From: Chloroflexota bacterium
Lineage (GTDB): Bacteria; Chloroflexota; Anaerolineae; Anaerolineales; Villigracilaceae
Direction of reading: 5' to 3'
Assembly: GCA_021795965.1 (NCBI GenBank)
Contig: JAJYOU010000009.1
Location: forward strand, 951-64,950
Length of the DNA stretch: 64,000 nucleotides
Shown here: positions 11,411 through 28,203 of the stretch, one piece after another
How the letters are laid out: each line of letters opens with the position of its first letter
Numbering within the stretch: the first letter of the stretch is position 1
Position numbers and translations under genes: made by a program
The notes under the pieces: generated by a model
Told to the model about the DNA's origin: nothing
Seen by the model: the letters and a program-made list of their open reading frames with translations, nothing else
Databases searched by the model: none

Positions 11411-11423
11411 CGAGCTGTTTGTG

Positions 11424-11465
11424 CGCACTCCCATTTTTTTGTCAAACCAGAAAAATGGGAGTGCG
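11424..11465 (+). other. Perfect 15-bp intergenic hairpin with no U-tract
   Basis: CGCACTCCCATTTTT (11424-11438) pairs with AAAAATGGGAGTGCG (11451-11465) around a 12-nt loop. It lies between the lepA stop and the next start. Confidence 0.4.
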
Positions 11466-11483
11466 ACCAGTATCGGAATATTT

Positions 11484-12518
11484 ATGTCCAATTTTCTAAG
11501 AGATTTTCGCCGCTTGCTTCCTGGTCTGGTGACCAGTTTTATCCTGGTCGCCGTGATTTTATATTTCGTGGACCTGCGCAAGACCATCGAGGCAATCAAG
11601 TCGGCGAACTATTTCATGCTTTTGGTCGTTCTCTTCCTGGGGATATTGTGGTTGTTGGTCCGCGGATTGGTCTGGCGAACTTTGCTGAGAAATCGCGCCT
11701 CCTATAAGGATGTATTCTTCACCCTGATGGAAGGCTACCTATTAAACAGCTTTTTACCCTTCAGGCTGGGAGAAATTGGTCGGGCTTTTCTGCTCAGCCG
11801 TAAAACCTCGTTGAACTTTATCGAAATACTCCCGACTATCATCGTTGAAAGGGTGATGGACCTGGCATTTTCCGCCGCAATCTTTATCATGGCGGTACCC
11901 TTTGTCGCAGGGGTGGGCAGCGCAAACCAGATTGGTTTTATCGTGGCAGGAATTGTCCTGCTGGGAATAGCAGCCATGTATTTATTGGCGCGCAACCGAC
12001 AATGGGCTCTCAATATTTTCCAAAAATTTGGACAGCGTTGGCCAAAAATCGGTGAGCTCGGTGGTAATCTCCTTGAATCATTTCTGAATGGTTTGGACAT
12101 ATTAACTGACCCGGTCCTTTTTGGTCGTTTTATTGGATTAATGACTTTGAACTGGGGCATGGCGATCGTCCAGTATTACCTTCTCACCAAGGCTTTTTTC
12201 CCACAGGCAACCTGGATCTGGGGCATGTTCGTGCTCGGAGCCGCTGCTTTTGGCGGGGCAATCCCATCCCTTCCGGGCGGAGTTGGCACCCTGGAAGGTG
12301 CCATGGCTGGGGCGGTGACCCTGCTCTCGGGCGATCAATCCGGTGCATTGGCAGTCGCCCTCAGCAGCCGTTTCCTTAATTATCTTTACAGTGGAGTATT
12401 TGGCTCAATTGGATTGTCCAAAGAAGGACAGACCATTTCCAGCATCTATCAACAATTAAAAAATTTGACCACTCGTTCTGAAGAAAAATCTTCCGGGACG
12501 GATTCCAAACAGGAGTAA
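11484..12518 (+). CDS. Flippase-like membrane protein (UPF0104 / lysyl-PG synthase TM-region family)
   Basis: About 8 TM segments, with the family-typical motifs FLPFRLGEIGRAFLL and PSLPGGVGTLEGAM. The first ATG is at 11484; the track's GTG at 11421 lies in the hairpin region. Confidence 0.7.
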   Translation: MSNFLRDFRRLLPGLVTSFILVAVILYFVDLRKTIEAIKSANYFMLLVVLFLGILWLLVRGLVWRTLLRNRASYKDVFFTLMEGYLLNSFLPFRLGEIGRAFLLSRKTSLNFIEILPTIIVERVMDLAFSAAIFIMAVPFVAGVGSANQIGFIVAGIVLLGIAAMYLLARNRQWALNIFQKFGQRWPKIGELGGNLLESFLNGLDILTDPVLFGRFIGLMTLNWGMAIVQYYLLTKAFFPQATWIWGMFVLGAAAFGGAIPSLPGGVGTLEGAMAGAVTLLSGDQSGALAVALSSRFLNYLYSGVFGSIGLSKEGQTISSIYQQLKNLTTRSEEKSSGTDSKQE

Positions 12519-12520
12519 AA

Positions 12521-13546
12521 ATGTCTGCCAATTATTTTGTAACCGGAGGAGCCGGGTTCATTGGTTCTAATTATGTTTCTCGCCTGATCAAGCGCGGCGA
12601 AAAAGTGACGATCTATGATAATCTGAGCCGGGCAGGTGCTCCCCGAAATCTAAAGTGGCTCCAGGATACTTACGGCGCAAAATCTTTTAACCTGGTAGCC
12701 GGGGATGTTCGCGATGCTGGTCAATTGGTCGTTTCAGCTCGCGAGGCAGATGTCATTGTCCACCTTGCCGGGCAGGTTGCTGTCACCACTTCAGTGGTCA
12801 ATCCCCGGGAAGATTTTGAAATCAATGCACAGGGCACTTTCAATGTGCTGGAAGCAGCCCGGCTCAATCAGCGCAACCCGATCTTTTTGTTCGCCTCCAC
12901 CAACAAGGTCTACGGCGGCATGGACGATGTCAAAGTCGTAGAAAGAGGTCAACGCTGGGAATATGAGAACCTGCCTTTCGGCGCAGCTGAGAACCAGCCA
13001 CTCGATTTCCATTCGCCTTATGGATGTTCCAAGGGCACTGGCGACCAATATGTGAGAGACTATCACCGAATTTATGGCTTGCGTTCGGTTGTGCTGCGCC
13101 AGAGTTGCATCTATGGTCCGCGACAATTTGGTGTGGAAGACCAGGGTTGGGTAGCCTGGATGGTAATCGCAGCTCAAACCGGCAAGCCCATTTCGATTTA
13201 TGGAGATGGCAAACAAATTCGAGATCTTTTACATGTCTATGATTTGAATGACGCTTATGACGCTGTCATTCAAAATATCGATCAGATTCAGGGGGAAGTC
13301 TTTAACCTGGGCGGCGGTCCCGAAAATACCATGTCCGTCTGGACGGAATTCGGTCCGCGGCTTGAGAGATTGCTGGGCAAAACCATTCCAGTCACCTATG
13401 GCGACTGGAGACCAGGGGACCAGAAAGTTTTTGTAGCAGATATTCGCAAAGCAGCAAAACTATTAGGTTGGAAACCACAATATTCGGTCGAAAAAGGTGT
13501 CAAACAGTTATTCGACTGGGTCAGCGAAAACAAGGATCTGTTTTAA
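12521..13546 (+). CDS. NAD-dependent sugar-nucleotide epimerase/dehydratase (SDR; CDP-paratose-2-epimerase-like)
   Basis: Rossmann motif VTGGAGFIGSN and catalytic YGCSKGTGDQY (YxxxK). It starts 2 nt after the previous stop. Confidence 0.8.
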   Translation: MSANYFVTGGAGFIGSNYVSRLIKRGEKVTIYDNLSRAGAPRNLKWLQDTYGAKSFNLVAGDVRDAGQLVVSAREADVIVHLAGQVAVTTSVVNPREDFEINAQGTFNVLEAARLNQRNPIFLFASTNKVYGGMDDVKVVERGQRWEYENLPFGAAENQPLDFHSPYGCSKGTGDQYVRDYHRIYGLRSVVLRQSCIYGPRQFGVEDQGWVAWMVIAAQTGKPISIYGDGKQIRDLLHVYDLNDAYDAVIQNIDQIQGEVFNLGGGPENTMSVWTEFGPRLERLLGKTIPVTYGDWRPGDQKVFVADIRKAAKLLGWKPQYSVEKGVKQLFDWVSENKDLF

Positions 13547-13553
13547 GGTTTTC

Positions 13554-14726
13554 ATGATGAAAATTCTGACAGTTCTCACCTATTATCGTCCACATACCTC
13601 CGGTCTGACAATTTATGCTGAGCGGTTGGCTGAAGCTTTTGTTCGTCGTGGACACGAGGTGACCGTACTTACCTCTCATTTCGACCCCTCCACTCCTGCC
13701 CAGGAATTTCGAAACGGCGTAAAAATCGTCAGGGCACCGGTGGCACTGCGCATCAGCAAAGGCGTGATCATGCCCACCTTCGGACTGCTGGCATGGAAAT
13801 ATGTTGCTGAAAATGACCTCATCCAGTTGCATTTGCCCCAGTTTGATGCTCCCGGGTTTGCATTACGTGCGCGTTTATTTGGAAAAGTGTCCATTCTGAC
13901 TTACCACTGTGATTTACAGCTCCCAGGTGGATTTTTCAATAATTTGGTCAACAAAGTTGTGGATTTTCAGAATTCCTCGGCTGCAGCTTTCGCGAACCAC
14001 ATCGTTACCTACACACAGGATTACGCGGATAACTCTCCTTTCCTGTCGCGTTACAAACATAAATTGACACCTATTTTGCCGCCAGTTCAATTACCGCCTG
14101 CACCCAGGGGTGCAATCGAAACCCTCGCGGGGGAAAATCAAATTTTCCCTGAGGGTCGTTGGCCAGTGATCGGCATGGCCACCCGCTTTGCTTCCGAAAA
14201 GGGCGTTGAGATCCTGCTTGAAGCCCTGCCTGAAATCCTGGCGAAATATCCAAATGCCCAGGTTCTTTTCGCTGGCCAGCATCTGAATGTGATGGGCGAA
14301 CAGGCTTATTTCAACCGTCTGAGTCCCATCATCCGCAAATTTGAAGAAAGTGGACATTGGAAATTTTTAGGCAACTTGAAACCGGAGCAAATGGCAGCAT
14401 ATTATCCCAACCTGGATTTGCTGGTTGTTTCGAGTCTGAATTCCACCGAAGCCTTTGGACTGGTCCAGATCGAAGCCATGCTCAATAACGTCCCCTGCGT
14501 GGCATCTGCGCTGCCTGGTGTCCGTCGACCGGTGCAAATGACGGGCATGGGTCTGGTAACGCCAATTGGAGATGCGAAAGCTCTTGCAGATGCGGTCTTG
14601 CAGATTTTGAATGAACCGCAAAAATATCGCCGCGATTCTGCGGAGATCGCCACCGTTTACGATCCGGATTCAATCGCTTCGGAATATGAAAAGCTTTTTG
14701 AAAAACTTAAAAAACAAAACCCGTGA
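13554..14726 (+). CDS. Glycosyltransferase family 4 (GT-B, WcaI-like)
   Basis: N-terminus MMKILTVLTYYRPHTSGL and C-terminal E-x7-E region STEAFGLVQIEAMLNNVPCVAS. The ATG at 13554 removes the overlap implied by the track start at 13497. Confidence 0.8.
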   Translation: MMKILTVLTYYRPHTSGLTIYAERLAEAFVRRGHEVTVLTSHFDPSTPAQEFRNGVKIVRAPVALRISKGVIMPTFGLLAWKYVAENDLIQLHLPQFDAPGFALRARLFGKVSILTYHCDLQLPGGFFNNLVNKVVDFQNSSAAAFANHIVTYTQDYADNSPFLSRYKHKLTPILPPVQLPPAPRGAIETLAGENQIFPEGRWPVIGMATRFASEKGVEILLEALPEILAKYPNAQVLFAGQHLNVMGEQAYFNRLSPIIRKFEESGHWKFLGNLKPEQMAAYYPNLDLLVVSSLNSTEAFGLVQIEAMLNNVPCVASALPGVRRPVQMTGMGLVTPIGDAKALADAVLQILNEPQKYRRDSAEIATVYDPDSIASEYEKLFEKLKKQNP

Positions 14727-14779
14727 GCAAATTTTTCATCCATTAATCTTAATTAAACCAACAGTGAGTCCTTCCAAAT

Positions 14780-15577
14780 ATGTCTGAAACCAGCACCAAG
14801 GATTTTTTATTTCTTCACACCCGAGATTTGCCTTATTTTCGCGCTTTTTTACGGGCGGTCGAATCGCGTTTTTACCAGAACTTGGATTTGCCATCGCCCA
14901 CCCTGGATATTGGTTGCGGGGATGGGCATTTTACCGAGTTAACATTCGACCGGAAACTTGAAGTCGGGCTGGATCCCTGGACAGGTCCGATTCATGAGGC
15001 GGGTACCCGCAGGGTCTACAACCTGCTCACCGAAGCGAATGGCGATGCCATGCCATACCCGGACGCTTTTTTTTCAAGTGCGATCAGCAACTCTGTCCTG
15101 GAACATATCCCCCAGTTGGACGCAGTCTTACTGGAAACCGCGCGCGTACTCAAACCCGACGCGATTTTCGTTTTTTGTGTGCCAAACCAAAATTTTTTAC
15201 CGAACCTGTCAATTGCAAAATTTTTCGACCGACTGGGACTAAAACCGCTAGCCAGGGCATATCGCGGGTTTTTTAATAAAATTTCGCGCCATATTACCTG
15301 CGAAAATCCAGATCAATGGAGGGAGAGGCTAGAGTCCGCAGGCTTTTCTATTGACAAATACTGGAATTATTTTTCCCCGAATGCCCTGGCGACCCTGGAA
15401 TGGGGACATTATTTTGGCGTTCCCTCCTTGATCCTCCATTTTTTAACCCGCCATTGGAACATCACAAAAGCCAAGTGGAATTTTGTGCCCATCATGTCCA
15501 TTTTGCGCAAATATTACAATGAACCAGTCCCGCAGGAAAAAGGCGCTTATACCTTTTATGTTACTCACAGAGTATAA
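14780..15577 (+). CDS. Class I SAM-dependent methyltransferase
   Basis: Motif I LDIGCGDGHFT and post-I/II region FFSSAISNSVLEHIP. Confidence 0.75.
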   Translation: MSETSTKDFLFLHTRDLPYFRAFLRAVESRFYQNLDLPSPTLDIGCGDGHFTELTFDRKLEVGLDPWTGPIHEAGTRRVYNLLTEANGDAMPYPDAFFSSAISNSVLEHIPQLDAVLLETARVLKPDAIFVFCVPNQNFLPNLSIAKFFDRLGLKPLARAYRGFFNKISRHITCENPDQWRERLESAGFSIDKYWNYFSPNALATLEWGHYFGVPSLILHFLTRHWNITKAKWNFVPIMSILRKYYNEPVPQEKGAYTFYVTHRV

Positions 15578-15616
15578 AGATTCCACCGCCTTTTGGTCTG
15601 AAGAGAGTATGCACGC

Positions 15617-17788
15617 ATGAAAGAACCCAGCGTTCTTGATTTTATAAAATCCAGGTTAAATCCCTGGCAAAAAGAAAAAATTCATATTCCTGCGGCTGCA
15701 ATTGGAGCATCAGAACCAAATATTTTAATTCCAGAAAACGCTTCTCAGGGCGAATCTCAATCAGCCAGCAGCTCTGGTAGGGAGCTAAATCCTGCTTCAA
15801 ATGGTGACTTGTTTAAGCTTTTCCCCTGGCGAACTTTAATTGCTCTTTTTCTTGCCCTGGTTGCCCAAAAAATGTTGGAACCACCTTCGCCTTCAATTCC
15901 AATGGCTCTTGGCCTGTATGTCATTTCGTTGGTTTTCCTTGTTTGGGCAAATTTTCGTCAGGAATTTGTCCTGCCCGGCAGGGAATCTGTACCGGAAGCT
16001 GTCGACCCGCAAACCTTCCGTACTCGCAGCCTGACATTTTCCATTTTTTTGGCATTGCTGGCATTCCTTTTATTTTCAAATAATTTATTTACAGCCCTGA
16101 ATGTCACCATCTGGTTGCTTGCCATCCTGATGTTTTTACATGGGCTCTGGCTGGGTGGATCATGGAAAACAGTTTTAATGAAAGGTTTCTCTTTCTTAAG
16201 GCAGGAAAACTGGAACCTGAAAATTTCGCGCCAGGCTCTGCTGCTGATCGCAATTATCCTAATCATACTTTTTTTTCGTTTTTATAACCTGAGCGGGGTC
16301 CCGGGTGAACCATTCAGCGACCACGCCGAAAAACTGCTGGATGTTTTCGATATCACACAGGGGCAAACCCACATATTCTTTCCCCGCAACACAGGGCGCG
16401 AATTTATTCAATTTTACCTGACTGCCCTCATTGCTGGCTGGTTGGGTACAGGTCTTTCCTTCCTTAGCCTAAAAATTGGGACCGCCTTGATCGGTCTCTT
16501 TACTCTACCTTTCATTTACTTGTTAGGAAAGGAAATTGGTGGCAAGCGGGTTGCAGTTTTCGCCCTGTTTTTGGCTGGCACATCTTACTGGTTAAATACA
16601 ATCAGCCGTATTGGCTTGCGGTTCCCGCTTTACCCGGCTTTCACTGCCCCGGCGTTATATTTTCTGATTCGCGGTTTACGGCGCCAGACTCGTAATGACT
16701 TCATTCTCTCGGGCTTATTCCTCGGATTAGGCTTGAACGGGTACAGCCCCTATCGAATAGTTCCGTTTGTCCTGGTACTTGCTGCTGGTTTATTCCTGCT
16801 CCACAAGCAATCCAGCGGGAAGCGAAAGCAAACCCTGATATTGTTTGCAATCCTGGTTCTGGCTTCTATCTTCTTATTTCTCCCGCTGGGCAGATACGCT
16901 CTCGAAAATCCGCAAATGTTTTCATACCGTGCCTTGACGAGGTTGACAGGTGAAGAGCAGGCGTTTACCGCTCCTGTCTGGAAAATTTTCCTTGACAATT
17001 CTTTCAATGCCATGCTGCTCTTCAATTATAACGATGGGGAGATTTGGGTTCATTCCATTCCACATCGCCCTGCCCTGGATGTCATCAGCGCCGTTCTATT
17101 TTTGTTCGGTTTCATCTTCCTCCTGGTTCGATATTTTCAAAAACGGGACTGGTTGGATTTATTCCTTTTACTTTCAATACCAATGCTTTTATTGCCTTCC
17201 ACCCTATCCCTGGCATTCCCCAACGAAAACCCATCTCTTAACCGGACCGGTGGAGCGGCGGTGATTGTCTTCATCATCGCTGCCATGGCGCTCGACGCGA
17301 TTTACACCAGCCTGATCAGGCAAAAGAGGCGGATCTGGCAGATTTCTGCTCTGGTCTTGGTTGGTGGAATGTTAACCATTTCAGCCAATCAAAGTTATGA
17401 TCTCGTTTTTCATCAATTTTCTGATGAATTCATGAACGGCGCGTGGAACACTTCGGATATCGGGAATGTGATTCACGCATTTGTCGAAGAAGGTAACAAT
17501 CCTGACAATGCCTTCGTGGTTCCCTACCCTTACTGGGTGGATACCCGCCTGGTGGGCATCCAGGCTGGATATCCAACCAAGGATTATGCGCTCTGGAGTA
17601 AAGACCTCAGTCAAACCCTGGCTGTAAGCGGAAATAAACTCTTTATCTTCAAGGAAGAGGATCAGGAAACCATGGATATCCTCAAAAAACTCTATCCGTC
17701 TGGCATGCTGGGACACTTTAACGCATCCTTGCCGGGCAAAAACTTCTGGATCTTTACGGTTTCCGAAAACCTGCCACCAGCCTCCTGA
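15617..17788 (+). CDS. Polytopic membrane protein, GT-C-type (GT39/ArnT/PMT_2-like) glycosyltransferase candidate
   Basis: 723 aa with more than 12 TM segments. The first-loop acidic motif follows RFYNLSGVPGEPFSDHAEKLLD. There is a C-terminal soluble domain of about 130 aa. Confidence 0.55.
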   Translation: MKEPSVLDFIKSRLNPWQKEKIHIPAAAIGASEPNILIPENASQGESQSASSSGRELNPASNGDLFKLFPWRTLIALFLALVAQKMLEPPSPSIPMALGLYVISLVFLVWANFRQEFVLPGRESVPEAVDPQTFRTRSLTFSIFLALLAFLLFSNNLFTALNVTIWLLAILMFLHGLWLGGSWKTVLMKGFSFLRQENWNLKISRQALLLIAIILIILFFRFYNLSGVPGEPFSDHAEKLLDVFDITQGQTHIFFPRNTGREFIQFYLTALIAGWLGTGLSFLSLKIGTALIGLFTLPFIYLLGKEIGGKRVAVFALFLAGTSYWLNTISRIGLRFPLYPAFTAPALYFLIRGLRRQTRNDFILSGLFLGLGLNGYSPYRIVPFVLVLAAGLFLLHKQSSGKRKQTLILFAILVLASIFLFLPLGRYALENPQMFSYRALTRLTGEEQAFTAPVWKIFLDNSFNAMLLFNYNDGEIWVHSIPHRPALDVISAVLFLFGFIFLLVRYFQKRDWLDLFLLLSIPMLLLPSTLSLAFPNENPSLNRTGGAAVIVFIIAAMALDAIYTSLIRQKRRIWQISALVLVGGMLTISANQSYDLVFHQFSDEFMNGAWNTSDIGNVIHAFVEEGNNPDNAFVVPYPYWVDTRLVGIQAGYPTKDYALWSKDLSQTLAVSGNKLFIFKEEDQETMDILKKLYPSGMLGHFNASLPGKNFWIFTVSENLPPAS

Positions 17789-17802
17789 ATGGATTAATAG
17801 AC

Positions 17803-20800
17803 ATGAAAAAATCAAACAATCGGCTCTGGCTTTACAACTTACTCTTCTTATTGATCCTTGGCTCGGCGGGCTATTTTCGTTTAATCGGTTTGGATTGGGA
17901 TCAGAGCCAGCATCTGCATCCGGATGAACGGTTTATGACGATGGTCGAATCGGCATTGGAACCCGTAAAAAGTCTTTCGGATTATTTCAATACCAAGATT
18001 TCTCCCCTTAATCCGAACAACCGTGGTTATTCATTTTATGTCTATGGTGACCTCCCCCTTGTGATTGTTCGGTACGCAGCCGAAGCGATGACATCCTTGT
18101 CCAAAATGGTGGATGGTCCGGCGTTTGTCAATTGGGCTGGATATGATCAAGTCACACTTGTGGGACGAGTCTTCTCTGCATTGTCTGATCTGGGTTCATT
18201 AATATTATTGTTCCTGATTTCCAGAAAATTATACGGCGAGAAGGTGGCTCTCCTTGCATCCGCCTTTTCAGCCTTGGCTGTGATGCAGATCCAGGAATCA
18301 CATTTCTTCACGGTAGACATGTTCGCCAATTTTTGCATGTTTTTGGCAACATTTTTTGCCGTTGAAATCATGCTTTTCCCTGAGAAAAATTTGATCGATG
18401 AAGACCAATCTGTACCGTCCAATCCTGAAACTCGGTTTATACATAATTTGCAAAATTATTTTCACAATCCACTTTTTTGGAACGTAATCGGCTTTGGACT
18501 GTCATTGGGCGCCGCGGCGGCATCCAAGCTGAATGCCGCACCGCTGGCGATCCTGCTCCCGGGCGCATTTTTGATCAGGTATTTCAAACAAAGCAAGCTC
18601 CCAAAAATCAATGCCGAGGACGAATCCCAACCTGATGATGAATCTGAACCGGGGAATGATACTGACAATGCTGCAAATCAACCTCAAAAAGCATTAAGCC
18701 TGGAAGCCATCTTCGGATTCCTCGTTTTGGGAGGAGTGGTTTCCATCCTGGCGTTCAGAATTTTGATGCCTTATGCCTTCAGTGGACCTAGCTTTTTGGG
18801 TGTCACCCCCAATCCCCAATGGGTATCGAACATTACGGAACAACGCGCCCAAGCCGGAGGTGATGTGGATTTTCCGCCCGCCCTGCAATGGGCGCGGCGC
18901 TCCATCCTGTTTTCCGGCTATAACCTGGCTGCCTGGGGCTTGGGTTGGCCTCTCGGCTTATTGGCATTGGCTGGTTTTCTATACATGGGTTGGCGCATCC
19001 TTAAAGGAGATTGGAAGGATCATCTCCTTTTATGGGCTTGGACAGGTTTGTATTTTGCCTGGCAATCCACCCAGTGGAACCCCACCATGCGCTACCAGCT
19101 TCCGATATATCCACTTTTGGCATTGCTGGCAGCCTGGTTCATATTTAATGGTCCCCGATTTATTTTCAAAAAACGAAATCAAAACCCGCAGACCCTTCCG
19201 GAACCGGCCAAGGCAGTTAATGTTTTTTATTTCATTCTTGCGAGTGTCGTCCTGATCGCAACAATTGCCTGGGCTTATGCCTTTACACGAATATATACGC
19301 GCGACCACACGCGAGTCCAGGCTTCGCATTGGATTTACCAGAATGTCCCCGGACCCTTTAACCTCAAAATCAAACAGGCGGATGGTTCAACTTATACCCA
19401 ACCCATGCCCATCCCGCAGGGATTTGTTCTTGCTTCCTCTGCTCCTTATGAGGTTCAATTTACAGCGTTCGCAACTGGGGAACTTTCCGCTATTTACATT
19501 GCCCATGCAGCAAACGTTGGAAATCCAGGCATGGTCAATCTCACTGTCGAACTTTACGCCACCCCCAATTTAAAAACTCAACCATTGGCGAAAGCCAGTC
19601 TTACCGCAGATTTTGGCGTCACATCCGACTCGCGCGGTGGAGATATCACCCTTAACCTGGATAACTCCGTTCCAGTTGCAGTCGATACAAATTACTTCCT
19701 AAGATTTTCAACCACTGGAAATCTTTCCATCTCAGGGTCCATCCCTGTTCATGAAACTTCCTGGGACGATGGCTTGCCTTTACGTATGGACGGCTACGAT
19801 CCGTACGGTGGAATTTACGAAGGCGATCACAACTTTGAGATGTACTGGGACGATAATGCCGATAAGTTGAATCGCTTCGAATCCAACCTGGATAGTGGGG
19901 ATTACATTTTTATCACTTCTGATCGCCAGTGGGCGACCACCACGCGGGTTCCTGAGCGCTACCCTCTTACCACGACTTATTACCGCGACCTGATCGGCTG
20001 CCCGGATAACATGGACGTAATCTGGTGTTACAACGTGGCCAATCCCGGTCAATTCAACGGCAAACTAGGCTTTGAATTGGTAAAAACGTTCACATCTTAC
20101 CCTGAAATCTTTGGGATTCAATTTAATACACAGTTTGCCGAAGAAGCATTTACTGTCTACGATGCGCCCAAGGTGCTTATTTTCAAGAAGACGAGTTCAT
20201 ATAATTCTCAGACCGTTCGAAAATTACTGGGCGCGGTGGATTTGACGCACGTTGTCCACGTTACACCGAGGCAGGCAGGCCGCTTTCCCGGCGACCTGAT
20301 GTTGCCAGGGGCGATGCTGGCAGCCGACCGTGCGGGCGGCACCTGGAGCGAGTTATTTTCCTACGATTCCCTACAAAACAAGTACCCTCTCCTGGGGTTG
20401 CTACTTTGGTATCTCGCAATTGGGATTCTGGGTTTGTTCACCTGGCCGATTTTGCGTTTATTTTTGCCGGGTTTATCCGACAGGGGTTATCCCCTCGCCA
20501 AACTGGGTGGCTTATTATTCCTCGCTTACCTTGTCTGGATGTTCGCCTCACTGGGCGGGACCTATTCCCGCACCACGATCGCGATTGCATACGCGGGGAT
20601 CATGGTGGTCGGAGCGGTCGCGTTTTTCCATCAAAGAGATTCAATCCTCAACGATTTGCGCACCAATGGGAAATATTACCTGATTGTTGAAATCCTCATT
20701 GCTGTTTTCTTTTTAATCGATTTTGCCATTCGCATGGGAAATCCTGATTTATGGCACCCTGCCCGTGGCGGCGAACGACCGATGGATTTCTCCTATTTAA

Positions 20801-22785
20801 ATGCGGTCATCAAGAGCACTGTCTTTCCGCCCTATGACCCCTGGTTCGCCGGCGGTTACATCAATTATTATTATTGGGGCTTTGTACTGGTGGGCACACC
20901 CATCAAATTGCTCGGAATTGTGCCTTCAATCGCCTATAATTTTGTCTTACCAACCTTGTTTGCCATGCTGGGAATAGGTGGTTTTTGTGTGGTCTGGAAC
21001 CTGACAAGCGGTTTCAACCTGAAGGAAACACGGACTTTTACACTTCAGTTGCTGGCCGGGCTGGCAGGTGGAGCAGGCTTGGTCTTAATCGGAAACCTGG
21101 GTACCATCCAGTTAATTTTCCACGCTTTGCAAAAAATGGTCATGACGAATGAGATTGTTGACGCCCAAAACGTCTGGATATTCCAGCGTTGGCTTTGGGC
21201 TGCCCAGGGTCTGGGTAAAATGCTTTCTGGTATCCCTTTGCCAATCGGCTTGGGGGAATATTATTGGGCTCCCAGTCGTGTGATGCCTGTTGGCGATCTG
21301 GCGATCACTGAATTTCCATTATTTACTTTTATTTACAGTGATCTCCATGCGCATATGATCGCTTTACCTCTGACGGTTATGGCAATTGCCTGGTCCCTTT
21401 CCACCCTTCGCGCCCGGAATCTTAGTCGCCTAGCCTGGCTGGCAACCATTGCCTTTGGTGGTCTGATCATCGGTGTGTTGCGTCCCATCAATACCTGGGA
21501 TTTCCCAACATATCTGATCTTCGGTTCAATCATCACGGGTTATTCACTCTTCCGATATGGGAGTCTGGATTTATTGCCAAAGATCAATTTAAACAATTCC
21601 ATCCGCAGGGTTCTATTAGCCCTCTTAGGCATGGGTCTCCTGGTCGGTTTTGCTTTCCTTTTCTTCCAGCCTTTTGCACATTGGTATGGGTTGGCTTATA
21701 CAAAAGTCAGCCTTTGGACGGATAACAAGACCCCAATCGGCTCCTATTGGACCCAATTTGGCTTCTTCCATTTTGTCATCATTTCATGGATGCTATGGGA
21801 AACACGTCAATGGATGGCTCAGACTCCAGCCTCGGCGCTTTTAAAACTTAAACCTTACCAACTTTTGATCGAGATCTTCTTCGCCGTAATGACCGGTTTA
21901 TACTTGGCTCTGCAGTTTATTTTGAATGTCCCGATTGCCTGGTTCGTCTTCCCGTTTGCAGTTTGGGCGCTCATCCTCATGCTGCGCCCTGGGCTACCCG
22001 ATGTCAAACGATTGGTTCTGTTCATGATCGGCACAGGACTGGTATTAACTCTTATTGTCGAGTTTATGGTTCTCTCGGGTGATATCGGGCGCATGAATAC
22101 CGTATTTAAATTTTATTTACAAGCCTGGGTTTTGTTTGCCATCAGCTCCGCTGCCGCCCTGGGTTGGATCTTCTATGAATTTGATGAATGGGGTCGGGTT
22201 GGAAAAATCGTTTTTCAGATCATTTGCAGCCTCCTGCTGGCTGGGACAATCCTTTTTACATTTACCGCAAGCATGGATAAAATTCGGGACCGAATTTCAC
22301 CAAATATTCCTTTCACACTTGATTCTATGACCTTTATGCAGTATTCCACATACCAGGATCAAACCAATATGGATCTCAAGCAGGATTATCTTGCCATCCG
22401 CTGGATGCAGGATAATATCAAAGGATCCCCGGTCATCGTAGAAGCCAACACTCCCGAATACCGCTGGGGAACCCGTTTCACAATTTATACTGGACTGCCC
22501 GGAGTGGTGGGTTGGAACTGGCATGAACGACAGCAACGCGCCTTGTTCCCGCCAGAATGGGTCACAAACCGTATACAGGAAATTTCCAATTTCTATAACC
22601 TGCCCGATTCATCCTCCATTAAAAGCTTCCTGGAAAAGTACGACGTAAAATATATTGTTCTGGGACAACTTGAGCGAGCGATTTATGATCCAACCGGCAT
22701 TGCAAAGTTTGAAACATTAAATGGCACACTTTGGAGTACGGTTTACCATGACGCAGACACGACCATTTACGAGGTGATGCCTTGA
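17803..22785 (+). CDS. 1660-aa fusion protein: N-terminal GT-C-like polytopic module, a central soluble region, and a C-terminal Chlor_Arch_YYY (DUF2298) module
   Basis: The N-terminus reads [25 protein letters not shown], followed by TM bundles. The soluble region spans about aa 500-850. From about aa 853 (nt ~20360) the protein is collinear with the whole 819-aa protein at 23173. Its YYY motif [11 protein letters not shown] is at 20866-20874. Confidence 0.65.
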   Translation: [1660 protein letters not shown]

Positions 22786-23150
22786 GTCTTATTTATCACA
22801 TTGCTCCTCGAAGTTCGGTTAAAGCAGCCCAAAAGGTGGGAGAATATCAAAATGAAAGCCTCCTGCGGGACGGTTTCATACACTTTTCCCAGCACAACCA
22901 GGTCCTGGGTGTGGCGACTGCGTTCTACAAAAACCAGAAAGATTTGGTCATCCTGGTCGTTGAGACGGACCTTCTAAAGGCTGATCTGAAATTTGAAGCA
23001 CCGGTTCACCCAGGTCAATCCACTGCCTCCACTACTCCTTCAGCCGGCCAGCTTTTTCCACATCTCTATGGACCGCTAAATTTCGATGCTGTCTTGGATA
23101 TTGTGGATTTTCCTCAAAAAGCGGATGGAAGTTTCGAATTGCCTTTCTAA
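22782..23150 (+). CDS. DUF952 family protein
   Basis: MSLIYHIAP..DGFIHFSQ..LVILVVETDLL..LKFE..LFPHLYGPLNFDAV matches my memory of the DUF952 pattern. The TTG start overlaps the upstream TGA (cTTGA). Confidence 0.6.
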   Translation: MSLIYHIAPRSSVKAAQKVGEYQNESLLRDGFIHFSQHNQVLGVATAFYKNQKDLVILVVETDLLKADLKFEAPVHPGQSTASTTPSAGQLFPHLYGPLNFDAVLDIVDFPQKADGSFELPF

Positions 23151-23172
23151 TTAACGACGAACCTGCGAGCCT

Positions 23173-25632
23173 ATGGAACACTTTCTTTTCTGGTACCTCT
23201 TCATCACACTATTAGGATGGTTAACTTTCCCCCTATCCTACAAATTATTTCCTGCGCTCGCGGATCGGGGTTACAGCCTGAGCCGGGCTCTCGGATTTCT
23301 GCTCTGGGGTTTTGTATACTGGATTGCCGTTTCATTTGGCCTGGTTTTGAATGAAATTGGAGGCTTGTTATTTGCACTGATCCTGGTGATTGGTCTCTCG
23401 CTTTGGGCATTACGAAAGCAAGCGGCAACACCCGGCGATAATTTCCTCGACGGTTTTCAATGGAACGAAGTTCTTGAATGGCTCAAAACCCACCTGAAGC
23501 TGGTTCTTTCCATTGAGGTCCTTTTCCTGCTGGCTTTTGCAGCCTGGACATTTGTGCGAGCCAATAACCCGGATATCGTTGGTACCGAAAAGCCCATGGA
23601 AGTCGCATTCATTAATGCGATTCTTCATTCTCCATTTTTTCCACCGCATGATCCCTGGTTAAGTGGTTATGGAATTTCATATTATTACTTCGGCTATGTG
23701 CTCACCGCCATGCTGGCAATGCTTACCGCTACCGAAGGAAATATCGCTTTTAACTTGATGCTGGCGTTGATTTTTGCCCTGAGTGTCATAGGTGCATATG
23801 GGCTGCTCACAAATTTATTGGCGGCTCACTGGAAGCACAATCACCGGGAAGATCGGGATTTTTCAGTCATTTTTTGGTCTCTATTCGGTCCGCTTTTCCT
23901 AGTGCTGCTTGGAAACATGGAAGGATTTTTGGAATTGTTATATTCGTTGGATATCGGCTGGAAAAACAAAACCACTAATTTCTGGCTCTGGCTGAACATG
24001 AAAGATCTTAACTTTCCACCTGTTTCTTCTTTATCCTGGAACCCGAGATTCTGGTTTTGGTGGCGTGCCTCGCGCGTGCTCCAGGATTTTGATTTGCGCG
24101 GAAATTTTGTCGAAGTGATAGATGAATTCCCCTTTTTCTCATATTTATTGGGAGATCTCCACCCTCATGTACTTGCAATGCCCTTCGGATTATTGGCGGT
24201 CTCACTTGGGCTCAACCTTTATTTGGGCGGCTGGCAGGGTGAAACGTCTTTTTGGAGTCTTTTTAAGATTAAAGTTTCCAGGGCTGGGCTCATCTTATCG
24301 GCGGTTGTGCTTGGGGGATTGGCTTTTCTCAACACATGGGATTTCCCGGTTTATCTGGCAGTCATCAGCAGTGCCTATATCCTTTTTCTGGTTAACCAGG
24401 ACGGTTGGGATTGGAGTCTGATCGAAGAATTTCTCAAGTTTTCGATCCCTCTCGGTCTGGCAAGTATTTTGTTGTACCTGCCTTTTTATGCCAGTTTTTC
24501 TTCGCAAGCAGGTGGCATTCTGCCGAATATCATTTTCCCAACACGTGGAATTTACATCTGGATCATGTTTGGAACCTTGCTGATTCCGATGTTTATGTTC
24601 ATGATCTTCCAGCAAAACCTGCGCCAGGCGAACTGGAAGAAAGGGCTTTTGATCGGATTTGGATTAACCCTCGCGTTGTTTTTGTTCTCCCTCATACTGG
24701 GCGTTATCGCTGGACAAACCGAAAGCGTTCAGGCTTATATCCAGGCTCAGGGATATTCGACCATCTGGAATTTGCTTCCCGCAGCCCTGCTGCGCCGGGT
24801 TGAATTCGGGGGTGGTTTAATAATCCTTATCCTTTTGGTTTCCGCTTCAATCGCTTTTTTGAGTGCCAAACAATCCACCAGCGAAGCTGAACCATCCGAA
24901 ACCCCTAATCCGATGCCGTTTATTTTCCTGCTCATTTTATTGGGCGGATTACTGGTCATGGCACCTGAATTTTTTTATTTGCGGGACCAGTTCGGCAATC
25001 GCATGAATACAGTCTTCAAGTTTTATTATCAAGCCTGGACATTCTGGGCGCTTGCCGCGTCTTTTGGTTTTGTTGTGATGATCACTGAGCTGCGCAGGTT
25101 TCGATCCTTAATAGTCGGATTTACGATGATTTTGGTTCTCTTTGCAGGACTGACCTATCCCATCCTCGCCCTGCCCAACAAAACAAATAATTTCAATTTT
25201 GCCAATCCACAGCTACGAACGTTGAATGGGGCTGCCTTCCTTGAATCCTCCAGCCCGGATGATTACCGTGCAATCGAATGGCTTTCTCATGCAAATGCCG
25301 GCATCGTGGCTGAGGCAGTCGGCGGCAGTTACTCCGAATTTGCACGTGTCTCCACCTTTTCTGGACAGCCCACCGTGCTTGGCTGGCCTGGTCATGAAGG
25401 TCAGTGGAGGGGCGGCTATACCGAAGTGGGGAATCGTGAAAAAGATATCGCCAAGCTTTATGTAACACATAATTGGTCAGACGCTGCATCAATTTTAAAT
25501 CTTTACGATATCCGCTACGTTTACATCGGTACATTGGAACGTACAACCTATGCCATGGATGATCGGAAATTTAAAGATCATTTAACAGAAGTTTATAATC
25601 AGGGTCAGGTGGTCATCTATGAAGTACCTTAG
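23173..25632 (+). CDS. Chlor_Arch_YYY (DUF2298) domain membrane protein
   Basis: 819 aa, polytopic. [35 protein letters not shown], with YYY at 23680-23688. It is a paralog of the C-terminal half of the 1660-aa protein ([11 protein letters not shown] vs [11 protein letters not shown]). Confidence 0.7.
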   Translation: [819 protein letters not shown]

Positions 25633-25683
25633 ATCCGATTTGCATTTCATTTTGATCCAAATTTTGGAAGTAAAATAACTCTC

Positions 25684-27408
25684 ATGACGGAACAATCCCG
25701 GGAACACAATTTTGAATTTGCGTTGTTCGGCTTGGCGTTTATTCTCGCGCTTGCGCTTCGTTTGTTTCGCCTGGATGTTTTACCCATGGGGGATGTTGAA
25801 GCTTCCTGGGCTTTGCAGGCTTTGAACCTTTCAAAGGGTCTCAGACCAGAGATTGGCGCTCAACCCGCCTATGTGATTTTTACTGGATTGTTGTTTTACA
25901 TTCTTCCAGTCACCAACTTTACCGCGCGATTGGTACCCGCAATTTCTGGCGCACTCCTTTGCCTGATCCCATTCCTTTTCAAGGATAAATTAGGCATTAA
26001 AGTTTCGGTGATCCTGGCTTTTTTCCTGGCTCTTGACCCAGGTTTTCTGGCTCTCTCCCGCACAGCCGGCAGTCCCATTCTTGCGCTTGCAGCCTTTCTT
26101 TTTGCACTTGGATATATTTATCGTGGTCAATCAGCCCAGGCTGGGGTCTTGCTCGGTATCGCCTTGCTAAGTGGACCAATCTTGTGGCCAGGTCTGATTG
26201 GGCTGGGTCTTGCTGCCAGTTTACAAAAAGGATTGTTCTCGAAAAATCTTTCCGGTGATAACCAAACCCCCGCTCCAATCCTGCACGCTCACGGGACACT
26301 CAAGAAATGGACAACAATTGCACTTTCTGCCGCGGGAACCTACGTCCTCCTGGGAAGCTTATTCTTTTTGGTACCAGGCAGCCTTGGATCAGGTCTCGAT
26401 TCGATCCCTGCTTACCTGAAAAGTTGGGTCAACGTCAGCGATGTTCCTATCACCCGCCTCATCCTGGGTCTGGTCTTCTATGAAATCCTGGCATTGGTTC
26501 TCGCTCTGATCGGCTTGGTGCGTGGAATAATCCAACGTGACAGGTTGGTAATTTTTCTCGGATTCTGGTTGTTGACCTCAGCCATCCTGGCAATCGCCAA
26601 CCCCTCGCGTACCACTGCTGATCTTATCTGGCTTCTCGTCCCTCTTTTGACCCTGGCTGCCCAGGAAGTATCCAGAAACATGCTTCCTGTTTTGGATGGC
26701 GCTTTGGAAACAATTGGAATGATGGTTTTCACGGTCGCAATTCTGGTTTTTTCATATATTAATTATTCAGCCATCGCATTGACCTCCATGGATCAAGTTG
26801 CGTTCCAATTGCGTGTATGGGTTTTGATTGGAGCGGTCAGCCTCCTGGCAATCAGCATCGTCCTGATCGCTTTTGGATGGTCTTTTCCAGTCGCTTTCCA
26901 GGGAAGCACCTGGGGAGTATTTCTTGTTCTGTTTTTCTACACCATTTCCACAGCGATGGCTGCCGGTGAACTTCGCTCGTATCAGACCCTTGAATTATGG
27001 CACTCAGGTCCTTATGCCGGACAGGTTCAGGTTATGACCAGGCAGCTGGATGATCTTTCCCGCTGGAAAACCGGGGTTGCCAAATCATTGGATGTGACAT
27101 TGGCAGAGATCGATTCCCCGGCAATTTTGTGGGCATTGAGAGATTGGCAAGTCAAAACAATTCCAGATGCCAATCTTTCAGATCAAACTCCTTCGATTGT
27201 GATTGCTCCAGATCAATTTACCAGCACAGAAATTGAATCTTCTTACCGGGGAAAAGATTGGATCTTGAGCACAAATCCTGCCTGGAATCAGGGTTTAATT
27301 TCTGATTGGTTGCGCTGGAGCGTATTGCATGTTTTCCCTCAATCAAACGAAAAAATTATCATGTGGGTGCGTAGTGATTTGTTTTTAGATTTTCAAAATA
27401 ACAGGTAA
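25684..27408 (+). CDS. Polytopic membrane protein, putative GT-C/TIGR03663-like partner of YYY proteins
   Basis: 574 aa with about 12 TM segments. The N-terminus reads LALRLFRLDVLPMGDVEASWALQAL. It ends with a soluble tail of about 130 aa. The family assignment is tentative. Confidence 0.45.
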   Translation: MTEQSREHNFEFALFGLAFILALALRLFRLDVLPMGDVEASWALQALNLSKGLRPEIGAQPAYVIFTGLLFYILPVTNFTARLVPAISGALLCLIPFLFKDKLGIKVSVILAFFLALDPGFLALSRTAGSPILALAAFLFALGYIYRGQSAQAGVLLGIALLSGPILWPGLIGLGLAASLQKGLFSKNLSGDNQTPAPILHAHGTLKKWTTIALSAAGTYVLLGSLFFLVPGSLGSGLDSIPAYLKSWVNVSDVPITRLILGLVFYEILALVLALIGLVRGIIQRDRLVIFLGFWLLTSAILAIANPSRTTADLIWLLVPLLTLAAQEVSRNMLPVLDGALETIGMMVFTVAILVFSYINYSAIALTSMDQVAFQLRVWVLIGAVSLLAISIVLIAFGWSFPVAFQGSTWGVFLVLFFYTISTAMAAGELRSYQTLELWHSGPYAGQVQVMTRQLDDLSRWKTGVAKSLDVTLAEIDSPAILWALRDWQVKTIPDANLSDQTPSIVIAPDQFTSTEIESSYRGKDWILSTNPAWNQGLISDWLRWSVLHVFPQSNEKIIMWVRSDLFLDFQNNR

Positions 27409-27513
27409 TTTATAATTTTGACCTTGTTATTTGGATCAATCCCTGAGTTAAATTTAAATAAACTCAGATAACCTCTTTCTCCAAAATATTTACCTGAAGG
27501 ATTTATTTTTAAT

Positions 27514-28191
27514 ATGCCTAAATTTTCTATTATTGCGATCGATGGCCCGGCAGCGTCTGGAAAATCTACACTTGCTTTCCGCCTGGCTGCCGCGCTCGGT
27601 TTTCTTTATTTTGATACAGGTCTCATGTACCGTGCAATTACCTGGGTGGCAATCAATCGCAAACTGAATGTGCTTGACGAAATTGGAGTTTCCAGGCTGG
27701 CTGAAAATGTCCAGATCGAGGTCTTGCCGCCTTCACTTTCAGATGGTCGTCCCTGTGATGTCGTCGTCGAAGGTCGCGACATCACCTGGGAAATACGAAA
27801 TCCGGATGTCGAAGCAAATGTCTCCATCGTTTCCGCCTATCCAGGTGTACGCCGAGCACTCACTCAGCAGCAGCGCCGGATTGGGCTGCACGGGCACGTC
27901 GTCATGGTGGGTCGGGATATCGGAACGGTTGTTCTACCCGAAGCAGATTTAAAAATTTACCTGGATGCTTCAGCCGCAGTAAGAGCACAGCGTCGCTTTA
28001 GCGAGTTAATCGGTCGCGGCATGAAAGTTAAATATTCTGAAGTTCTGGAAAAAGTGATCGAGCGAGATCGAATCGACACAAATCGCGACATTGCTCCTCT
28101 CATTCCTGCCAAAGACGCGGTGATTATCGATTCAGATAATCTGGATGCGGACAAGGTTTTTGAAAAGATTTTTGATTTATGCAATGATTAA
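27514..28191 (+). CDS. cmk: Cytidylate kinase
   Basis: IAIDGPAASGKST and FLYFDTGLMYRA, with the typical length of 225 aa. Confidence 0.9.
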   Translation: MPKFSIIAIDGPAASGKSTLAFRLAAALGFLYFDTGLMYRAITWVAINRKLNVLDEIGVSRLAENVQIEVLPPSLSDGRPCDVVVEGRDITWEIRNPDVEANVSIVSAYPGVRRALTQQQRRIGLHGHVVMVGRDIGTVVLPEADLKIYLDASAAVRAQRRFSELIGRGMKVKYSEVLEKVIERDRIDTNRDIAPLIPAKDAVIIDSDNLDADKVFEKIFDLCND

Positions 28192-28203
28192 CAGGTTTGA
28201 TTG

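What the first reader, a model, noticed from the sequence alone, without database searches (positions are those of the whole stretch)
17803..22785. Natural fusion of a GT-C-like module to a full YYY (DUF2298) module in one 1660-aa protein
Seen in sequence:
- The C-terminal ~808 aa (from nt ~20360) are collinear with the entire neighbouring 819-aa protein. Start region: LFLPGLSDRGYPLAKLGGLLF vs LFPALADRGYSLSRALGFLLW.
- YYY region: [35 protein letters not shown] vs PMEVAFINAILHSPFFPPHDPWLSGYGISYYYFGY.
- Further matches: NTVFKFYLQAW vs NTVFKFYYQAW, and KYIVLGQLERAIYD vs RYVYIGTLERTTYA.
- The N-terminal ~850 aa form a separate polytopic bundle (HLHPDERF loop) plus a soluble domain of about 350 aa.

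Inference: this is a Rosetta-stone-type fusion. It argues that the GT-C-like proteins and the YYY proteins, which are separate genes elsewhere in the operon, act together physically. The unfused YYY paralog 400 nt downstream indicates duplication and divergence.
Basis: partly seen in the sequence, partly recalled or inferred. Interest (0 to 1): 0.7.

Follow-up and report, generated by a model that had tools for sequence, protein, structure and literature searches.

The report
Conserved tandem GT-C glycosyltransferase fusion protein
The 1660-residue gene is a real fusion of two different membrane glycosyltransferase-type modules that is conserved across Anaerolineales bacteria; it is already in the databases but unstudied, so it is a useful lead rather than a surprise.

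Summary
ORF 17803-22785 is uninterrupted. Its C-terminal ~800 aa are a complete YYY/DUF2298 module (TIGR03662, 476 bits), collinear with the 819-aa neighbour at 30% identity (E 4e-41 and 4e-21), including polar loops and the soluble C-terminal domain.

The fusion is not an artefact and not rare. A genome scan matched at least 592 stretches, all named ones from Anaerolineae. In the 80 loci kept, 69 have one complete 1594-1756 aa ORF with both modules. There are no gaps across the junction, and no copy is split there.

The interpretation needs revising:
- AlphaFold2 plus Foldseek show that the YYY module is itself GT-C fold (AftA, STT3, AglB), with an AglB-like C-terminal domain.
- The N-module is also GT-C fold (AglB, Pmt4, EmbC, ArnT) with an invariant D41-E42. 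The protein is therefore a tandem of two distinct GT-C modules.
- The N-module is only remotely related to the 723-aa neighbour (hhalign 92%) and not detectably to the 574-aa one.
- No split form was found, so the Rosetta-stone argument is weak.
- Functional linkage rests on a conserved cluster: lepA, flippase-like, SDR, GT4, methyltransferase, GT-C 723, fusion, DUF952, YYY 819, GT-C 574, cmk, acyltransferase.

Substrates are unknown. Interest is moderate.

The parts
17803..22785 (+). Complete 1660-aa ORF: a tandem of two GT-C modules (N-module, soluble domain, YYY module)
   Evidence: open frame; 69 complete orthologous ORFs of 1594-1756 aa; the same 1660-aa product is on record from NCBI.
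17803..19344 (+). N-module membrane bundle (aa 1-514), GT-C fold of the PMT/ArnT type
   Evidence: AF2 pLDDT 88.2, pTM 0.87. Foldseek: AglB 1.6e-7, Pmt4 1.9e-7, STT3, EmbC, ArnT, ALG9/12. Weak PF13231 match, E 3e-4. hhalign against the 723-aa family: 92%, E 6e-7.
17911..17934 (+). HLHPDERF motif (aa 37-44) in the first loop after TM1. H39, P40, D41 and E42 are at least 95% conserved; this is the candidate catalytic acid pair.
   Evidence: conservation; the motif aligns with the conserved VPxEPF loop of the 723-aa PMT_2 family.
19345..20367 (+). Soluble domain (aa 515-855): a beta-sandwich (about aa 519-650) plus an alpha/beta subdomain with a conserved Cys pair (C733, C742) and the EEAFTxYD motif. 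Inferred to be extracytoplasmic.
   Evidence: DSSP of the AF2 model. Foldseek hits of the beta-sandwich to PHR and lectin-like folds. Conservation. Positive-inside reasoning: K456, K457 and R458 precede the last TM.
20323..20442 (+). Module junction (aa 841-880): a conserved segment (GTW..F......N) leading into the first TM helix of the YYY module
   Evidence: 0% gaps across 70 aligned full-length sequences. 186 of 240 database relatives have a single HSP spanning aa 830-900.
20386..22293 (+). YYY/DUF2298 membrane part (aa 862-1497), about 16 helices with a GT-C core. Conserved residues: E991, D995, D1012, Y1022-1024, E1170, D1180, H1182, H1184, N1230, D1233, R1430, N1432, K1436.
   Evidence: family match. 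AF2 pLDDT 89.3, pTM 0.92. Foldseek: AftA 4e-6, STT3A 2e-5, AglB 4e-5, ArnT 0.03. Conservation.
22294..22782 (+). C-terminal globular domain of the YYY module (aa 1498-1660), with the conserved GW..H..QQR motif at aa 1570-1579
   Evidence: Foldseek match to the AglB C-terminal globular domain 3vu0_B (probability 1.0, TM 0.53). hhalign against the C-terminus of the 819-aa family, E 5.5e-39.
22782..23150 (+). DUF952 gene lying between the fusion and the YYY paralogue. Its start overlaps the fusion's stop codon.
   Evidence: PF06108, E 1.2e-26. Present directly after the fusion in 39 of 54 loci.
23173..25632 (+). Stand-alone YYY paralogue (819 aa)
   Evidence: TIGR03662, 513 bits. 30% identity to the fused module. 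Downstream of the fusion in 50 of 54 loci.
15617..17788 (+). 723-aa PMT_2-type GT-C protein, immediately upstream
   Evidence: PF13231, E 1e-9. Immediately upstream in 67 of 69 loci.
25684..27408 (+). 574-aa polytopic protein with an Agl23-like (TIGR03663) N-terminus
   Evidence: TIGR03663, 54.7 bits, below the cutoff of 126. Downstream in 43 of 51 loci. One homologue is annotated as a phospholipid carrier-dependent glycosyltransferase.
11421..15577 (+). Upstream conserved cluster genes: flippase-like LPG_synthase_TM protein, SDR nucleotide-sugar dehydratase/epimerase, GT4 glycosyltransferase and SAM methyltransferase
   Evidence: families. (synteny).

Best explanation
The gene encodes one very large membrane protein of about 29 helices. 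It is conserved throughout Anaerolineales and joins two different GT-C-fold glycosyltransferase modules.

Module 1 (aa 1-855):
- It is a PMT/ArnT-like GT-C bundle with an invariant Asp41-Glu42 in the first outward-facing loop.
- It is followed by an extracytoplasmic beta-sandwich plus alpha/beta domain, which probably holds the glycan acceptor.

Module 2 (aa 862-1660):
- It is a YYY/DUF2298 module: a few extra N-terminal helices, then a GT-C core resembling AftA, STT3 and AglB, with conserved acidic and histidine residues in outward loops.
- It ends in an AglB-like globular domain.

Topology: module 1 ends outside the membrane and YYY proteins begin outside, so the two join without any topological adjustment.

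Proposed mechanism (inferred):
- Both active sites face the outer side of the cytoplasmic membrane.
- Both take sugars from polyprenyl-phosphate carriers.
- They act one after the other on the same envelope glycoconjugate, as a covalent version of the GT-C pairs Pmt1-Pmt2 or EmbA-EmbB.
- The surrounding conserved cluster supplies a nucleotide-sugar-modifying enzyme, a cytoplasmic GT4, methyltransferase(s), a flippase-like protein and three further GT-C-type proteins.

Shown here: the architecture, the folds, the conservation and the synteny. Inferred: the topology, catalytic competence, donor type, sequential action and the acceptor.
For: - The ORF is intact.
- It is one ORF with both modules in 69 of 80 genome loci, and at least 592 stretches matched in the GTDB species-genome scan.
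- The junction has no gaps and is conserved. 186 of 240 database relatives span it in one HSP.
- Both AF2 models are confident: pLDDT 88 and 89, pTM 0.87 and 0.92.
- In both Foldseek searches, all significant full-length matches are GT-C enzymes.
- The C-terminal domain matches the AglB globular domain.
- Candidate catalytic residues of both modules are at least 95% conserved across 70 sequences that are only 46-69% identical. The 819-aa paralogue keeps the YYY-module set.
- The DE loop aligns with the equivalent loop of the PMT_2-type neighbour.
- Charge distribution fits the proposed topology.
- The 12-gene synteny is conserved.
Against: - No biochemical or genetic data exist for any DUF2298 protein.
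- No polyprenyl-phosphate sugar synthase (GT2) was seen in the conserved cluster.
- The topology rests on hydropathy and charge only. My rough count gives 12 helices for module 1, where an odd number is required.
- The full-length protein could not be modelled, so no contact between the modules has been shown.
- The PMT_2 score of the window's N-module is below Pfam's threshold.
- Agl23, a GT-C-like relative of the 574-aa neighbour, acts as a lipid-linked-sugar flippase rather than a transferase (PMC11182771). GT-C-like folds are therefore not always transferases.
Confidence: 0.6

Rival explanations
1. A catalytic GT-C module is fused to a non-catalytic YYY partner (an accessory, scaffold, carrier-lipid binder or flippase). 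The fusion would then report a physical complex between the GT-C and YYY proteins that are encoded separately in the operon.
For: - Fusion and tight synteny of GT-C-type and YYY genes.
- A stand-alone YYY gene sits next to an Agl23-like gene.
- Agl23 itself has flippase activity (PMC11182771), so GT-C-like membrane proteins can serve non-transferase roles.
Against: - The YYY module has a GT-C fold, and transferases are its only significant structural matches. MurJ and MATE transporters score a probability of 0.08 or less.
- It keeps invariant acidic and histidine residues in predicted outer loops.
- The N-module is not detectably related to the 574-aa protein and only remotely to the 723-aa protein.
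- No split state was found.
Confidence: 0.2
2. A protein-glycosylation machine. The YYY module would be an oligosaccharyltransferase-like enzyme that transfers a lipid-linked glycan to envelope proteins. The PMT-like N-module would add O-linked or further sugars to the same proteins.
For: - STT3A and AglB are among the top structural matches, and the C-terminal domain resembles the AglB globular domain.
- The N-module matches Pmt4 and Pmt1/2.
- From memory: the family co-occurs with the Agl23 family in Archaea, where N-glycosylation is well known.
Against: - The best match of the YYY module is the arabinan-building enzyme AftA.
- The WWDYG motif that defines STT3, AglB and PglB is absent. The conserved motif in the C-terminal domain is GW..H..QQR.
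- There is no sequence-level match to any STT3 or AglB chain in the PDB or to Pfam STT3.
Confidence: 0.15
3. Artefact: two adjacent genes joined by an assembly error, a frameshift or a lost stop codon in this one genome.
For: None beyond the unusual length. Many database relatives look truncated or stand-alone.
Against: - The same single ORF is found in 69 independent assemblies.
- The junction is conserved and has no gaps.
- Truncated relatives break at scattered positions, never at the junction.
- Other truncated relatives come from assemblies in which lepA is also fragmented.
Confidence: 0.01

Closest known systems
TIGR03662 Chlor_Arch_YYY / Pfam PF10060 DUF2298 family (function unknown)
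   Same: The C-module and the 819-aa neighbour are full-length members scoring above the curated cutoffs, and both have the YYYxG motif. Orthologues of the whole fusion are already in the databases under the name 'DUF2298 domain-containing protein', with PF13231 and PF10060 both listed.
   Different: Here the module is preceded by about 860 aa of a second, unrelated GT-C module plus a soluble domain. No published function or structure for the family was found.
GT-C glycosyltransferases that work as pairs: Pmt1-Pmt2 (6p25), Pmt4 homodimer (9i5k), EmbA-EmbB and EmbC2 (7bvc, 7bvh)
   Same: Same fold for the N-module. An acidic pair in the first outer loop. In the Emb proteins, extracytoplasmic carbohydrate-binding-type domains. 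The concept of two GT-C units acting together.
   Different: Those pairs are made of separate polypeptides from the same family. Here two dissimilar GT-C families (no profile homology) are joined covalently in one chain. The literature search found no description of a tandem GT-C polypeptide.
AftA arabinofuranosyltransferase (8if8) and STT3/AglB oligosaccharyltransferases (9n9j_I, 5gmy, 3vu0)
   Same: These are the best structural matches of the YYY module. The C-terminal globular domain resembles that of AglB.
   Different: Sequence identity is 12-13% and there is no sequence-level match. WWDYG is absent. The module has extra N-terminal helices, so that it starts outside the membrane (inferred).
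Agl23 / TIGR03663 (Haloarcula hispanica; flippase activity-associated protein)
   Same: The 574-aa neighbour matches the N-terminal third of the model. From memory of the TIGRFAMs description, the TIGR03663 and TIGR03662 families co-occur, as the 819-aa and 574-aa genes do here.
   Different: The score is below the family cutoff (54.7 against 126). The fused N-module does not match TIGR03663 at all and shows no profile homology to the 574-aa family.

Membership tests
TIGR03662 Chlor_Arch_YYY / PF10060 DUF2298 (C-module) | Score above the curated cutoff over the whole model | tested here: met
   476 bits against a cutoff of 300.25, profile positions 3-726 of 727. PF10060: 340 bits against 27.8.
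TIGR03662 Chlor_Arch_YYY / PF10060 DUF2298 (C-module) | YYYxG motif | tested here: met
   N1021-Y-Y-Y-W-G1026 in the window. N, YYY and G are at least 95% conserved in 70 sequences.
GT-C fold glycosyltransferases (N-module) | Polytopic fold matching solved GT-C enzymes | tested here: met
   27 PDB matches with E <= 1e-3, all GT-C enzymes: AglB, Pmt4, Pmt1/2, STT3, EmbA/B/C, ArnT, ALG9/12 and PglB.
GT-C fold glycosyltransferases (N-module) | Conserved acidic residue(s) in the first extracytoplasmic loop | tested here: met
   D41 and E42 are invariant in 68 sequences and at least 95% conserved in 70. They lie after TM1, which has a positively charged N-terminus. That the loop faces outward is inferred.
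GT-C fold glycosyltransferases (YYY module) | Polytopic fold matching solved GT-C enzymes | tested here: met
   AftA E 4e-6 (TM 0.51), STT3A 2e-5, AglB 4e-5, ArnT 0.03. No other fold scores a probability above 0.6.
GT-C fold glycosyltransferases (YYY module) | Conserved acidic residue(s) in an outward loop that precedes the core helices | tested here: inconclusive
   E991, D995 and D1012 are conserved in the loop after the fourth helix. Equivalence to the catalytic Asp of AftA or AglB could not be checked, because no residue-level structural alignment or model coordinates were available.
GT-C fold glycosyltransferases (both modules) | Use of a lipid-phosphate-linked sugar donor | not testable with these tools
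   Requires biochemistry.
Pfam PMT_2 (PF13231; GT39/GT83-type) for the N-module | Score above the gathering threshold | tested here: not met
   20-21 bits against a cutoff of 26.1. Many orthologues do carry precomputed PF13231 or PF02366 hits, and hhalign to the PMT_2-type 723-aa family gives 92%. It is a remote relative, not a scored member.
STT3/AglB/PglB oligosaccharyltransferases (YYY module) | WWDYG motif in the C-terminal domain | tested here: not met
   No WWD[YWF]G in the sequence. The conserved motif there is GW..H..QQR.
STT3/AglB/PglB oligosaccharyltransferases (YYY module) | Sequence-level match to STT3 family models or chains | tested here: not met
   No Pfam STT3 hit even at E <= 10. 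No PDB sequence or profile hit.
Rosetta-stone fusion (in the sense of Marcotte et al.) | The two fused parts occur as separate proteins in other genomes | tested here: not met
   For the N-module family no true split was found. 0 of 80 loci are split at the junction. The 'stand-alone' database entries are frameshift fragments. More distant lineages could not be surveyed. YYY alone does exist separately (the 819-aa gene).
TIGR03663 / Agl23 (574-aa neighbour) | Score above the curated cutoff | tested here: not met
   54.7 bits against 126.25, N-terminal 135 residues only.

The most novel reading that the evidence does not exclude
The fusion and its conserved neighbours together provide five GT-C-type modules, plus a flippase-like protein, a GT4, methyltransferases and a sugar dehydratase/epimerase, all embedded among housekeeping genes. 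They may form the assembly line for a still undescribed, possibly essential envelope glycopolymer or lipoglycan of Anaerolineae, comparable in logic to mycobacterial LM/LAM or arabinogalactan synthesis. In that reading the tandem protein would be the first natural single-chain GT-C heterodimer. It would also give the widespread DUF2298/YYY family of Chloroflexota and Archaea its first functional assignment, as a glycosyltransferase with an AglB-like domain.
Probability: 0.3. Interest if true: 0.65.

Novelty: new variant of a known kind. Interest (0 to 1): 0.4.

Why it matters
- DUF2298/YYY is a large membrane-protein family with no known function. Showing that it has a GT-C fold, keeps conserved outward-facing acidic residues, and is permanently welded to a PMT/ArnT-like GT-C in a whole bacterial order gives a concrete, testable hypothesis: two sequential extracytoplasmic glycosyl transfers.
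- A natural single-chain pair could serve as a model for how GT-C enzymes cooperate.
- The result points to an unexplored envelope glycoconjugate pathway in Anaerolineae, which are abundant in sludge, sediments and soils.
- The architecture is already catalogued and nothing here overturns current ideas, so the value is that of a well-founded lead.

Tried and rejected
- **hhalign of A1 against A2.** The result was meaningless because both alignments contained the same long fused proteins. I repeated it with trimmed alignments.
- **PDB sequence and profile searches for both modules.** No relevant hits; only fold comparison worked.
- **Looking for true split forms.** Database proteins of 850-1075 aa without DUF2298 looked stand-alone. 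The two I examined (P0021, P0116) lie in assemblies where lepA and the YYY genes are also fragmented. The four broken or truncated GTDB copies I examined break at about aa 450-540, 1140, 1231 and 1507, not at 860. I rejected all of these as evidence for a split state.
- **Looking for 574-aa/YYY fusions.** None among the 120 listed homologues.
- **Exact look-up of the encoding contig.** Nothing on record. The cluster look-up shows the 1660-aa product exists in NCBI on a 79.7-kb contig, but without a name, so the organism could not be named. The nearest GTDB genome is Anaerolineales bacterium UBA5195 (63% identity in the N-module).
- **Literature searches for DUF2298, TIGR03662/3, the YYY domain and tandem GT-C.** No functional study found. 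The 'YYY domain' hits concern the unrelated Y_Y_Y domain.
- **Hydropathy-only helix counting.** Too noisy. It was replaced by AF2 secondary structure plus charge counts, which still leave the helix parity of module 1 unresolved.
- **Not used.** The search of 1.84 billion representative proteins was not run. It lists only the 150 best hits, which would all be close orthologues, so it could not answer the question of fused versus split.
Full report
**1. Observation**

ORF 17803..22785 (+) is an uninterrupted 1660-codon frame. Its C-terminal part, aa 864-1658, matches the whole TIGR03662 Chlor_Arch_YYY model (476 bits against a cutoff of 300) and PF10060 DUF2298.

BLASTP against the neighbouring 819-aa protein (23173..25632) gives two collinear blocks at 30% identity, with E 4e-41 and 4e-21. 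The second block covers the soluble C-terminal domain. Trimmed profile comparisons give E 1e-101 for the membrane part and 5.5e-39 for the C-terminal domain. The similarity is therefore real homology and not hydrophobic composition. All quoted motifs are present. The description of the N-terminal half, a polytopic bundle plus a soluble domain of about 340 aa, is borne out by the AF2 model.

**2. Artefact or real gene**

The 80 kept are all MAGs labelled Anaerolineales, Anaerolineae or Chloroflexota, apart from a few labelled Chloroflexia or Herpetosiphon.
- In those 80 loci, 69 carry one complete ORF of 1594-1756 aa containing both modules. Most of the others run off a contig end.
- The four broken or truncated copies I examined break at about aa 450-540, 1140, 1231 and 1507, never at the junction near aa 860.
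- Database proteins that look like a stand-alone N-module come from assemblies in which lepA and other genes are fragmented too.
- In an alignment of 70 full-length sequences (46-69% identical to the window protein), aa 841-880 has no gaps and contains conserved residues.
- 186 of 240 database relatives span the junction in one HSP.
- NCBI already holds this very 1660-aa product.

The fusion is genuine, old and the normal state of this gene.

**3. What the two halves are**

*N-module (model of aa 1-870; pLDDT 88.2, pTM 0.87).* Every significant Foldseek match to the membrane part is a GT-C glycosyltransferase: AglB, Pmt4, Pmt1/2, STT3, EmbA/B/C, ArnT, ALG9/12 and PglB. At sequence level there is only a sub-threshold PMT_2 hit. 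There is also a remote profile match to the family of the upstream 723-aa PMT_2 protein (hhalign 92%, E 6e-7). In that alignment the invariant HPDERF loop lines up with the conserved VPxEPF loop of the 723-aa family. The soluble domain is a beta-sandwich (PHR or lectin-like matches) followed by an alpha/beta subdomain with two invariant cysteines.

*C-module (model of aa 855-1660; pLDDT 89.3, pTM 0.92).* The best matches are AftA (E 4e-6, TM 0.51), STT3A, AglB and ArnT. The C-terminal domain matches the AglB globular domain (probability 1.0, TM 0.53). Transporter folds score a probability of 0.08 or less. The YYY/DUF2298 family is thus itself GT-C fold.

The two modules show no profile homology to each other. 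The protein is a tandem of two different GT-C families, not 'a GT-C plus something else'.

**4. Conservation and topology**

Residues conserved in at least 95% of the 70 aligned sequences:
- Module 1: H39, P40, D41, E42, Q362-W-A-R-R366, M429-R-Y-Q-L-P434, C733, C742 and E781-A-F-T.
- Module 2: E991, D995, D1012, Y1022-1024, E1170 (ITEFP), D1180, H1182, H1184, N1230, D1233, R1430, N1432, K1436 and GW..H..QQR at aa 1570-1579.

The 819-aa paralogue keeps the module-2 set. Both modules, and both paralogues, are therefore under purifying selection at candidate active-site positions.

Charge distribution suggests the following topology (inferred, not shown):
- The N-terminus (MKKSNNR) is inside, so the DE loop is outside.
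- The last helix of module 1 is preceded by K456, K457 and R458, so the soluble domain is outside.
- The first YYY helix runs from outside to inside, followed by a positively charged loop.
- After four helices, the GGERPMD...PPYDPW...YYY loop is outside.
- With about 16 helices in the module, the C-terminal domain is also outside, as in AglB.

The stand-alone 819-aa protein starts directly with the equivalent helix, meaning its N-terminus is outside. This explains why the fusion needs no topological adaptation. My helix count for module 1 is uncertain.

**5. Genomic context**

The window is core chromosome: dnaX, prmA, dnaJ, grpE and hrcA lie upstream, and yidC, jag and parA lie downstream. 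The gene order is conserved across the 80 loci:

lepA, flippase-like LPG_synthase_TM protein, SDR sugar dehydratase/epimerase, GT4, one or two methyltransferases, GT-C 723, fusion, DUF952, YYY 819, GT-C-like 574, cmk, PlsC-like acyltransferase.

Counts:

| Neighbour | Loci with it / loci with enough sequence |
|---|---|
| 723-aa gene immediately upstream | 67 / 69 |
| 819-aa gene downstream | 50 / 54 |
| 574-aa gene downstream | 43 / 51 |
| DUF952 directly after the fusion | 39 / 54 |

Intergenic gaps in the window run from -4 to 105 nt. This is strong evidence for a shared pathway. The YYY duplication predates the divergence of these lineages.

**6. Mechanism**

Best explanation (confidence 0.6): a two-active-site extracytoplasmic glycosyltransferase, that is, a covalent counterpart of GT-C pairs such as Pmt1-Pmt2 or EmbA-EmbB. 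Both modules would draw on polyprenyl-phosphate sugars and act successively on one envelope glycoconjugate.

The architecture, fold, conservation and synteny are shown. Catalysis, donor, acceptor and sequential action are inferred.

Rivals:
- A non-catalytic YYY partner (0.2). Agl23, a GT-C-like protein, behaves as a flippase (PMC11182771), so the idea is not absurd. The conserved acidic and histidine residues and the transferase-only structural matches argue against it.
- An OST-like protein-glycosylation role (0.15). The STT3 and AglB matches favour it. The absence of WWDYG, and AftA being the best match, argue against it.
- An artefact (0.01).

**7. Comparison with what is known**

The C-module is a scored member of TIGR03662 and PF10060. 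The N-module is GT-C by fold but below threshold for PMT_2. The YYY module is not an STT3-family member (the motif and sequence tests both failed). The 574-aa neighbour only partly matches Agl23/TIGR03663.

From memory, and not checkable here: the TIGRFAMs descriptions already note that TIGR03662 and TIGR03663 co-occur, and that some proteins carry extra N-terminal regions or two YYY copies.

Orthologues of the fusion are in public databases as 'DUF2298 domain-containing protein', with both Pfam domains listed. I found no paper on DUF2298 function or on tandem GT-C polypeptides.

**8. Verdict**

The fusion is real and the paralogue arose by an old duplication. However, YYY is itself a GT-C module, and the fused N-module is its own family. 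No split state was found, so the Rosetta-stone inference of physical interaction among the separate operon proteins is not established. Conserved synteny gives functional linkage instead.
- Novelty: a new variant of a known kind (a single-chain GT-C heterodimer), catalogued but unstudied.
- Interest: 0.4.

Noticed in passing
window 22782-23150 (+): A small DUF952 gene (122 aa; PF06108, E 1.2e-26) fills the 'gap' between the fusion and the 819-aa YYY gene. Its start overlaps the fusion's stop codon. It sits directly after the fusion in 39 of 54 related loci, and its role in a glycosyltransferase cluster is unexplained.
   Followed up: partly
window 9611-28908 (+); loci L001-L080: A 12-gene order is conserved across Anaerolineales: lepA, flippase-like, SDR dehydratase/epimerase, GT4, methyltransferase(s), GT-C 723, fusion, DUF952, YYY 819, GT-C-like 574, cmk, PlsC-like acyltransferase. 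The glycosylation genes are sandwiched between housekeeping genes, and no polyprenyl-phosphate sugar synthase (GT2) is in the cluster.
   Followed up: partly
window 6654-8729 (+): A 691-aa polytopic membrane protein has no Pfam or NCBIfam match. It carries a YWDDW motif after its first helix, reminiscent of GT-C-type loops. It is conserved only in the two closest loci (L001, L003).
   Followed up: no
loci L059, L061, L081, L082 (long-contig MAGs): Long genes of this cluster, and even lepA, are chopped into several ORFs in these assemblies. The result is many 'partial' or apparently stand-alone database proteins. Database length distributions for this family are therefore misleading.
   Followed up: yes
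window 18595-18699 (aa 265-299 of the fusion): An acidic loop with low model confidence (9 Asp/Glu in 35 residues; pLDDT 53-76) sits inside the N-module. Its length varies among orthologues (36-49% gaps).
   Followed up: no
window 57024-57097 and 57143-57218 (+): Two adjacent tRNA-Ala genes (anticodons CGC and GGC). These were the only Rfam gathering-level matches in the window.
   Followed up: no
window 29133-32432 (+): A 1099-aa sensor histidine kinase (PhoR/WalK-like C-terminal half) lies directly downstream of the cluster. A kinase gene is present in that position in only some related loci.
   Followed up: no
database proteins P0001, P0081, P0089, P0103, P0109: Several orthologues in the protein database begin at a position equivalent to aa 135-161 of the window protein, and so lack TM1 and the DE loop. 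This may be gene-start miscalling or contig truncation; it was not checked.
   Followed up: no
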